DNA of 64,000 nucleotides. It comes from Octopus vulgaris. Taxonomy: Eukaryota. The stretch spans positions 58,962,001 to 59,026,000 of the forward strand of contig OX597823.1 in NCBI GenBank assembly GCA_951406725.2, written 5' to 3'. The position numbers and the translations under genes were made by a program. Of this stretch, positions 37,278-37,850 are shown piece after piece. Under the pieces are notes generated by a model that saw only the letters and a list, made by a program, of their open reading frames with translations, had not been told where the DNA came from and made no database searches. The first letter of the stretch is position 1. Each line of letters opens with the position of its first letter.

Positions 37278-37850
37278 GTTGGGAAATAAACTTTACTATT
37301 CGGTACTGTTACTGTAGCAGTTGTTTTTCTATTTACGAGATCAGCGATTGTGTGTCACTTAAAAGATATATAGTATTTGCAAGAGAGCCTTCATCACTAG
37401 CCAGTCATATTCTCACACTGATGACGCGTTACTACCCAGAAATCTAGGTGTGTGAGCATTATGTATGACTAGAAATGGGAGCGATGACCTCCCTTGCATT
37501 GACTATACGGGCACATTTCTTATATGTGCCGGTAACCAACTGGAAAAGATATTTCCCTTGGGCTAAATAATCATAACATCGTCCTTGTATAGAACGATGT
37601 TTCTGATTAAAAAGAAAGAATACATTGTTTGCTAAACTTATCCTTGCACGAAACTTATGAAAATACAAGATTTTCATAGCTCGAACAACTTTCGTTATTA
37701 ATTTTACCTAAGGCGGTGAGCTTGTAGAATCGTTTTCACACTGGACGAAATGCTTAGCAGTATTTCGTCCGTCGCTACGTTATGAGTTCAAATTCGACCG
37801 ACTTACTATTCGGTACTATTACTGTATATCACTCGCTCAGAGATTTAAAA
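37278..37850 (+). mobile_element. Diverged third HH1 unit, with a partial restart at ~37803 after a SINE D fragment (37709-37800)
   Basis: acgagatcagc...ctagaaatgggagcgatgacct...gtccttgtatag matches 21530-21865. Confidence 0.75.
37412..37456 (+). ncRNA. Minimal type I hammerhead; core intact, cleavage triplet GUG
   Basis: CTCACA-CTGATGA-c gcgt tact accc a-GAAA-t ctag GTG-TGTGAG; perfect stem I; palindromic CTAG loop III. Confidence 0.72.

What the first reader, a model, noticed from the sequence alone, without database searches (positions are those of the whole stretch)
37412..37456. Covariation between HH1 copies supports a selected, dimer-type hammerhead fold
Seen: the diverged third copy changes stem I to CTCACA/TGTGAG (vs ACACAC/GTGTGT) and loop III to CTAG (vs TCGA). 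Pairing and self-complementarity are both preserved, while CUGAnGA-C...A-GAAA is kept. Inference: the structure, including the palindrome needed for intermolecular stem III, was under selection in distinct source subfamilies. This copy's GUG triplet is probably inactivating.
Basis: partly seen in the sequence, partly recalled or inferred. Interest (0 to 1): 0.75.

Follow-up and report, generated by a model that had tools for sequence, protein, structure and literature searches.

The report
Dimer-type hammerhead in decayed retrozyme
This is a worn-out copy of a small jumping repeat whose predicted self-cutting RNA motif keeps a self-complementary loop through several complete sequence changes, which likely means it cuts only as a pair of matching molecules; elements of this kind are already known.

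Summary
37412-37456 is a type I hammerhead motif in a decayed copy of a ~355-bp non-coding repeat; the core pattern has 1,317 exact matches genome-wide, control 0. Copies run longer than one unit, end at two fixed points and often form head-to-head pairs: an animal non-LTR retrozyme with Penelope-type insertion marks. The CTAG loop and CTCACA/TGTGAG stem belong to a real source subfamily. Subfamily loops are CTAG, CATG, TCGA, TGCA, CCGG, ATGCAT and one non-strict palindrome, TCGG, which pairs by G-U wobble (155 copies versus 20 of its mismatched mirror). The two central bases take all four self-complementary forms, which only pairing between two ribozymes explains. Corrections: the stem I comparison was one base out of register; only two of six pairs change on both sides. 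This copy has four private lesions and is likely dead. Palindromic loop III and dimer cleavage are in print (PMC3088659, PMC4209133, PMC7229834), and this scan found retrozymes before on other DNA of this genome. Possibly new: a fixed C10.1-A11.1 mismatch and the wobble bridge. Cleavage is untested.

The parts
37412..37456 (+). Type I hammerhead motif, copy C (CTAG subfamily), likely inactive
37412..37417 (+). Stem I 5' strand (2.6-2.1), CTCACA
37418..37424 (+). Core C3-A9, CTGATGA
37425..37438 (+). Stem-loop II: C10.1, three pairs (one broken here by a private G>C at 37427), 6-nt loop ending in A, A11.1
37439..37450 (+). G12-A15.1, stem III with palindromic loop CTAG (37444-37447), triplet GTG; private C15.2>T (37443) and C17>G (37450)
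37451..37457 (+). Stem I 3' strand TGTGAG; position 1.7 (37457) is C here, T in the subfamily
37277..37595 (+). Main body of retrozyme copy C, 12% (33 of 266 columns) from its subfamily majority
37805..37867 (+). 3' end piece of copy C, separated from the main body by about 210 bp of other sequence; repeats the copy's own 5' start (longer than one unit)
21123..21498 (-). Retrozyme copy A (TCGA subfamily); hammerhead 21319-21363 with C3>A
21484..21898 (+). Retrozyme copy B (TCGA subfamily), head-to-head with A, 350-bp terminal redundancy; hammerhead 21691-21735

Best explanation
The motif is a decayed, likely inactive copy of the hammerhead of a ~355-bp non-coding retrozyme, and in the source elements two tandem ribozymes likely paired through their self-complementary loop III to cut the RNA. 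Shown: the repeat unit, the subfamilies, the covariation, the insertion pattern and this copy's private lesions. Inferred: a multi-unit transcript folds into a double hammerhead (stem III and stem I formed between neighbouring ribozymes), cuts after GUC, monomers are circularised, and a Penelope-type RT/endonuclease copies the circle or uncut multimer from two fixed start points into new sites. Selection acted on the RNA of source elements; inserted copies then decayed.
For: Loop III: subfamily loops CTAG, CATG, TCGA, TGCA, CCGG, ATGCAT, TCGG from clusters built without loop III or stem I (245 of 246 copies kept). In 133 distinct copies picked by a loop-blind pattern, 84 are strict and 111 wobble-tolerant palindromes, against 30 and 50 (max 47 and 71) in 5,000 half-loop shuffles; loop II control 1 of 133. 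Central dinucleotides CG, GC, TA, AT are adjacent bases and cannot pair within one hairpin. 72 of 92 six-nt loops are ATGCAT (counted by eye). Monomer stem III hairpin costs +2.0 to +2.9 kcal/mol; the double hammerhead is computed 14.7-20.7 kcal/mol below two monomers in 9 of 9 subfamilies. Stem I: 54 of 54 cells pair, 5 of 6 positions vary; 33 real copies 91.4% paired, 59 double-change cells versus 21.9 shuffled. In copies found with a query outside the ribozyme, core changes 13 of 288 and 4 of 312 against 74 of 722 and 49 of 535 in the upstream flank. Unit: 44 of 88 self-matches from 243 copies have period 351-360; 15 of 60 copies exceed one unit, 58 of 60 end at about +173 or +220, 22 of 60 have an inverted 5' partner.
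Against: No cleavage data. 5' ends do not gather at the cut site (1 of 60 within 5 nt). 10.1-11.1 is C-A, not the usual G-C, and Rfam finds no hammerhead in the window or in 8 loci with intact cores at E<=5. Copies are not independent: the loop evidence is about five or six historical changes, and the subfamily tree is unresolved (0 of 6 inner branches well supported). Flank-only clustering separates CTAG from CATG only partly and one TCGA cluster mixes CCGG/TCGG/TCGA. Core invariance in 18 of 18 columns is partly circular, since fixed most core letters. No autonomous partner was tied to the family. In the 2026 preprint only 1 of 9 frog retrozyme dimers cleaved in vitro.
Confidence: 0.8

Rival explanations
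1. The ribozyme cuts as a monomer; the palindrome is kept for another reason, such as kissing between circles or recognition during copying.
For: Stem III has two pairs plus a tetraloop and the U1.7 / last-A-of-loop-II contact is kept (U 124 of 133, A 127 of 133). Coral and mussel retrozyme ribozymes cleave as single motifs, and axolotl HHR_Amex2 with a two-pair helix III cleaves 22% as a monomer (PMC7229834).
Against: Monomer helix III is unfavourable here; stem II starts with a mismatch as in HHR_Amex2, which cleaves much better as a dimer. No other function needs symmetry centred exactly on loop III.
Confidence: 0.1
2. The palindromes come from mutation at the DNA level (template switching in a quasi-palindrome, CpG decay), not from selection on RNA.
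For: The 2.1-1.1 change G-C to A-U could arise from two CpG decays; A-T at that pair occurs in 13 of 133 copies picked without regard to stem I.
Against: CTAG/CATG and TCGA/TGCA differ by paired transversions. Decay after insertion breaks symmetry evenly: CTGG 47 versus CCAG 38, and the substitution spectrum is strand-symmetric. The symmetry spans only the 8-10 nt that would form helix III.
Confidence: 0.04
3. The repeat is the terminal repeat (pLTR) left by truncated autonomous Penelope-like elements, not a separate retrozyme.
For: Head-to-head pairs (21 of 34 neighbour pairs) and the two ends about 45 nt apart match PLE insertions (PMC8557442 passages); frog retrozymes are related to pLTRs.
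Against: Shared sequence stops within 680 bp upstream in 191 copies with a match; sequence upstream of the unit is the unit's own 3' part; longest stop-free frame 65-98 aa in 6 monomers, and three PLE-like protein pieces hit only 4 of 315 sequences with no fixed position to the ribozyme.
Confidence: 0.06

Closest known systems
Animal non-LTR retrozymes (Cervera and de la Pena 2020, PMC7229834; read parts 2-4 of 6 and passages; supplement not readable)
   Same: Non-coding 350-390 bp class of unit, GC below 50% (39-46%), one type I hammerhead per unit, tandem or longer-than-unit copies; axolotl HHR_Amex2 has a two-pair helix III with tetraloop, a mismatch at the base of helix II, and cleaves best as a dimer.
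   Different: Mismatch is C-A, not U-U; copies are mostly dispersed one- to 1.5-unit insertions with inverted partners, not long arrays; circular RNA and cleavage not shown here; no cephalopod is mentioned in the main text.
Repeat-type type I hammerheads with palindromic stem/loop III (Perreault et al. 2011, PMC3088659; passages, section 8, Fig. S8 legend and garbled text)
   Same: Fig. [quoted passage not shown]
   Different: Section 8 names U10.1-U11.1 as the natural exception at that pair, not C-A; no subfamily series or wobble intermediate in what I read.
Hammerheads of Penelope-like elements (Cervera and de la Pena 2014, PMC4209133, parts 1-2 of 4; Lunse et al. 2017 seen only as a title in a reference list)
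   Same: Families full of covariation within one genome, palindromic 15.2-16.2 and loop 3, proposed dimers.
   Different: Those have minimal helix III, long helix II, an extra nucleotide after A9 and a conserved G10.1-C11.1; here helix I is long, U1.7 is kept, 10.1-11.1 is C-A and no ORF is attached.
Vertebrate retrozymes as non-autonomous PLE derivatives (Li, Clavereau, Pollet 2026, bioRxiv 10.64898/2026.07.22.740005; abstract, results part 1 of 2, passages)
   Same: Argues PLE origin and mobilisation of retrozymes, as the insertion marks here suggest.
   Different: No mollusc sampled in what I read; 'palindrom', 'loop' and 'helix III' do not occur in its text.

Membership tests
Type I hammerhead ribozyme | Core C3 U4 G5 A6 N7 G8 A9, G12 A13 A14 A15.1, U16.1 H17 | tested here: met
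   Subfamily majorities; intact in 15 of 24 and 23 of 26 copies found without the ribozyme as query. This copy itself fails at position 17 (G).
Type I hammerhead ribozyme | Three helices, open at helix I, with covariation | tested here: met
   stem II first pair G-C 99, A-T 20 of 133
Type I hammerhead ribozyme | Standard pair at 10.1-11.1 (usually G-C) | tested here: not met
   C-A in 9 of 9 majorities; exact G-C version of the pattern has 0 genome matches. A natural U-U exception is in print, so this makes it a variant. The numbering rests on the recalled 14-nt spacing of the schistosome ribozyme; two single-base insertions is an alternative reading.
Type I hammerhead ribozyme | Loop 1 / loop 2 tertiary contact (unpaired U1.7 with last A of loop II) | tested here: inconclusive
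   Both letters conserved; the contact is described in PMC11875169 passages; the contact itself cannot be seen from sequence
Type I hammerhead ribozyme | Match to an Rfam hammerhead model | tested here: not met
   0 hits in the window at gathering score; no hammerhead family among 56 matches on 8 loci at E<=5
Type I hammerhead ribozyme | Self-cleavage | not testable with these tools
   No genomic footprint of the cut site
Animal non-LTR retrozyme | Non-coding unit of 150-450 bp, GC below 50%, one type I hammerhead per unit | tested here: met
Animal non-LTR retrozyme | Tandem or longer-than-unit genomic copies | tested here: met
   15 of 60 copies exceed one unit; two-ribozyme tandems at 354-360 bp in L007, L034, L040, L186
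Animal non-LTR retrozyme | Highly self-paired circle | tested here: inconclusive
   Circular fold z -3.1 to -5.1 in 4 of 6 monomers, -0.3 in the 2 from older subfamilies, 40 shuffles each
Animal non-LTR retrozyme | Expressed as linear and circular RNA | tested here: inconclusive
   Only contigs of runs guessed to be RNA were available
Autonomous Penelope-like element | RT and GIY-YIG ORF between terminal repeats | tested here: not met
   (flanks of 0.5-1.5 kb for most loci; not a whole-genome exclusion)

The most novel reading that the evidence does not exclude
These are obligate homodimer hammerheads with an undescribed C10.1-A11.1 core, and loop III plus stem I act as a self-recognition code: subfamilies cannot activate each other (computed penalty 6-25 kcal/mol for most cross pairs), new codes arise through wobble intermediates that pair with both parent and descendant (TCGA to TCGG to CCGG, no computed penalty), and the genome preserves this as a fossil series of compensatory evolution in an intermolecular helix.
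Probability: 0.25. Interest if true: 0.55.

Novelty: new variant of a known kind. Interest (0 to 1): 0.33.

Why it matters
The dimer model for animal repeat hammerheads rests mostly on a few in vitro assays and on lists of palindromic loops. This family gives a within-genome evolutionary test: seven loop states, all self-pairing, with a built-in mirror control, and it supplies ready natural constructs for swap-and-rescue assays. A working C-A at the pair called the second most conserved of the fold would widen hammerhead search descriptors; Rfam models miss the family altogether. The class, the mechanism and the palindrome itself are known, so the gain is incremental.

Tried and rejected
Rfam: no hammerhead hit. 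Penelope terminal-repeat reading: my first guess, dropped when the ~355-bp period appeared. RNA editing as the source of TCGG: rejected, A>G 328 of 12,144 versus T>C 272 of 10,915 in flanks. A second wobble bridge CTGG between CCGG and CTAG: suggested by small samples (5 vs 1; 6 vs 1) but not borne out genome-wide, 47 versus 38. Copies starting at the cut site: not found (one search failed for the TGCA set and was redone). Copy-level tree and majority-sequence tree: too weakly resolved to order the loop changes. First hierarchical clustering and K=10 clustering mixed CTAG and CATG and gave a chimeric loop; K=12 was used, leaving out one 5'-truncated CCGG cluster and one two-copy cluster. Expression: no RNA holder listed; contigs of four runs guessed to be RNA cover the unit and hardly its flanks, which cannot be told from summed DNA or read-through of a many-copy family. 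Single-strand folds: copy C z -1.74, not in the hammerhead fold; 1 of 5 sequences reached z below -3. Lunse et al. 2017 and one further review were not held; the PMC7229834 supplement could not be read; either may already show C-A variants. Literature searches for the 10.1-11.1 mismatch, for octopus or cephalopod retrozymes and for wobble covariation listed no paper on this family, judged from titles and abstract starts.

Full report
Observation. The sequence at 37412-37456 is as described. It has two homologues in the window, copy A on the minus strand and copy B on the plus strand near 21.1-21.9 kb, both with loop TCGA. Copy A has lost C3 and copy B has stem I mismatches, so the window alone gave thin support.

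The family. The window lies in a 2.8-Gb genome of 227 contigs; I take it to be an octopus-like animal from recall and from earlier scan notes, untested. A pattern fixing only the core and the C and A flanking stem II has 1,317 exact matches, control 0; a tighter one has 679, and 60 carry this copy's 5' stem I strand. I fetched 314 loci in all; 246 copies covering the ribozyme came from the first 254 loci and the window. The unit is non-coding and about 355 bp: 44 of 88 self-matches from 243 copies have a period of 351-360. Of 60 copies found with a query lying 3' of the ribozyme, 15 are longer than one unit, 58 end at about 173 or 220 nt past the cut site, 5' ends are scattered, and 22 have an inverted partner at the 5' end, 18 of these with one short and one long end. 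Copies A and B are such a pair. This fits animal non-LTR retrozymes (PMC7229834, parts 2-4 of 6 read) with the inverted copy and tail described for Penelope-like insertions (PMC8557442 passages). No attached ORF was found.

Subfamilies and loop III. Mixture clustering on flanks, N7 and loop II, blind to loop III and stem I, kept 245 of 246 copies and gave majority loops CTAG (two clusters, one holding this copy), CATG, TCGA (two, one holding A and B), TGCA, CCGG, TCGG and ATGCAT. Separation of CTAG from CATG is imperfect and depends on K. In 133 distinct loop-blind copies, 84 loops are strict palindromes and 111 pair if G-U is allowed; shuffling loop halves gives 30 and 50; the loop II control gives 1. 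These copies are related, so the real weight is the handful of source changes. What matters is their form: the two central bases occur as CG, GC, TA and AT. Adjacent bases cannot pair in one hairpin, so this covariation points to pairing between two ribozymes. Six-base loops are ATGCAT in 72 of 92 matches, with a small group CAGCTG, CGGCCG, CGGCTG (counted by eye).

The exception. TCGG is not a strict palindrome, yet it has 155 genome matches against 20 for its mirror CCGA. Decay of TCGA or CCGG should give both equally, since substitutions in the copies are strand-symmetric and the control pair CTGG/CCAG is 47 to 38. So a TCGG source amplified. It self-pairs with two U-G wobbles (-8.9 kcal/mol against -1.3 for CCGA) and pairs with TCGA and CCGG without computed penalty. 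This is one clear amplification, perhaps two (8 of the first 100 TCGG listed share a second background), so it shows tolerance, not a measured preference; the order TCGA, TCGG, CCGG is inferred, as the trees are unresolved.

Rest of the fold. Across nine majority sequences stem I pairs in 54 of 54 cells with five of six positions varying, and a distal helix in 44 of 45. On 33 real copies (this copy, 28 chosen by flank similarity, 4 TGCA copies added by hand) 91.4% of cells pair and 59 show double changes against 21.9 in shuffles. All 18 core and contact columns are invariant against 91 of 220 flank columns, partly by construction of the search patterns; the ribozyme-blind sets show fewer core than flank changes as well, with the caveat that the flank figure includes source diversity and CpG sites. 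U1.7 and the last A of loop II are conserved, as for the known tertiary contact (PMC11875169 passages). Position 10.1-11.1 is C-A in all nine, and an exact G-C version has no match. PMC3088659 section 8 and PMC7229834 report U-U there; I did not find C-A, but could not see Lunse et al. 2017 or the PMC7229834 supplement. Rfam misses the family.

This copy. It is 12% from its subfamily and has private changes at G10.3, C15.2, C17 and U1.7. In 34 BLAST-derived copies of the CTAG/CATG group core positions change at 5.9% and flanks at 8.4%, and 21 of 34 cores are intact: inserted copies decay. The copy's 3' end piece lies at 37805-37867 beyond an inserted stretch.

Mechanism. Shown: unit, subfamilies, covariation, insertion pattern. 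Inferred: transcripts of tandem copies fold as double hammerheads, computed 15-21 kcal/mol below two monomers, cut after GUC, circularise, and are copied by Penelope-type enzymes. Copies read through the cut site and only 1 of 60 starts within 5 nt of it, so the template is a circle or an uncut multimer, and there is no genomic proof of cutting. Expression data were uninformative.

Novelty. Palindromic loop III and dimer cleavage are stated in PMC3088659 Fig. S8 legend, PMC4209133, PMC6765202 passages, PMC6155905 passages and PMC7229834; the PLE link is argued in a 2026 preprint. Earlier notes of this scan describe retrozymes with two fixed ends on other DNA of this genome; a sequence look-up found no note on this stretch and a word search none on the loop series. 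The C-A core and the wobble bridge make it a variant worth a bench test. Interest 0.33.

Noticed in passing
window 26743-27288 (-): 181-aa stop-free frame with Cys motifs and a YVGQT motif that looks like a Penelope-type GIY-YIG endonuclease remnant (recalled motif; no Pfam hit).
   Followed up: partly
window 28544-29260 (+): DDE_3 transposase remnant (PF13358, E 5e-10).
   Followed up: partly
window 40121-41704 (+): 3' part of a non-LTR retrotransposon ORF (weak zf-RVT, E 5e-4) directly behind a 570-bp TAA repeat.
   Followed up: partly
window 37710-37758; also 11765-11813, 18330-18379, 56536-56575: Short interspersed repeat motif, 78-84% alike; one copy lies in the stretch that splits retrozyme copy C.
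   Followed up: no
L127, L144, L183, L196, L199, L210, L211 (each about position 1500): A separate, older repeat family with the same C-A flanked stem II and loops ACGT, ATGT (2), ACAT, GCAT, ACAC, ACTT, compatible with a decayed ACGT palindrome; no BLAST match to the main family.
   Followed up: partly
L214 about 1011 and L023 about 135: Relatives of the ATGCAT subfamily that appear to have a one-pair stem III (A-CATG-T in L214), as in newt-type hammerheads.
   Followed up: no
G000 C6:128894889, C18:11892877, C8:87389563, C5:76115431: Small group with six-base loops CAGCTG (2), CGGCTG, CGGCCG: a possible second wobble series.
   Followed up: no
L091 about 1000-7000: An L1/Tx1-like LINE (endonuclease and RT frames) lies between retrozyme copies; earlier scan notes describe LINEs targeting retrozymes in this genome.
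   Followed up: no
L117 3900-4500: Three-copy tandem with a shortened 249-bp period instead of ~355.
   Followed up: no
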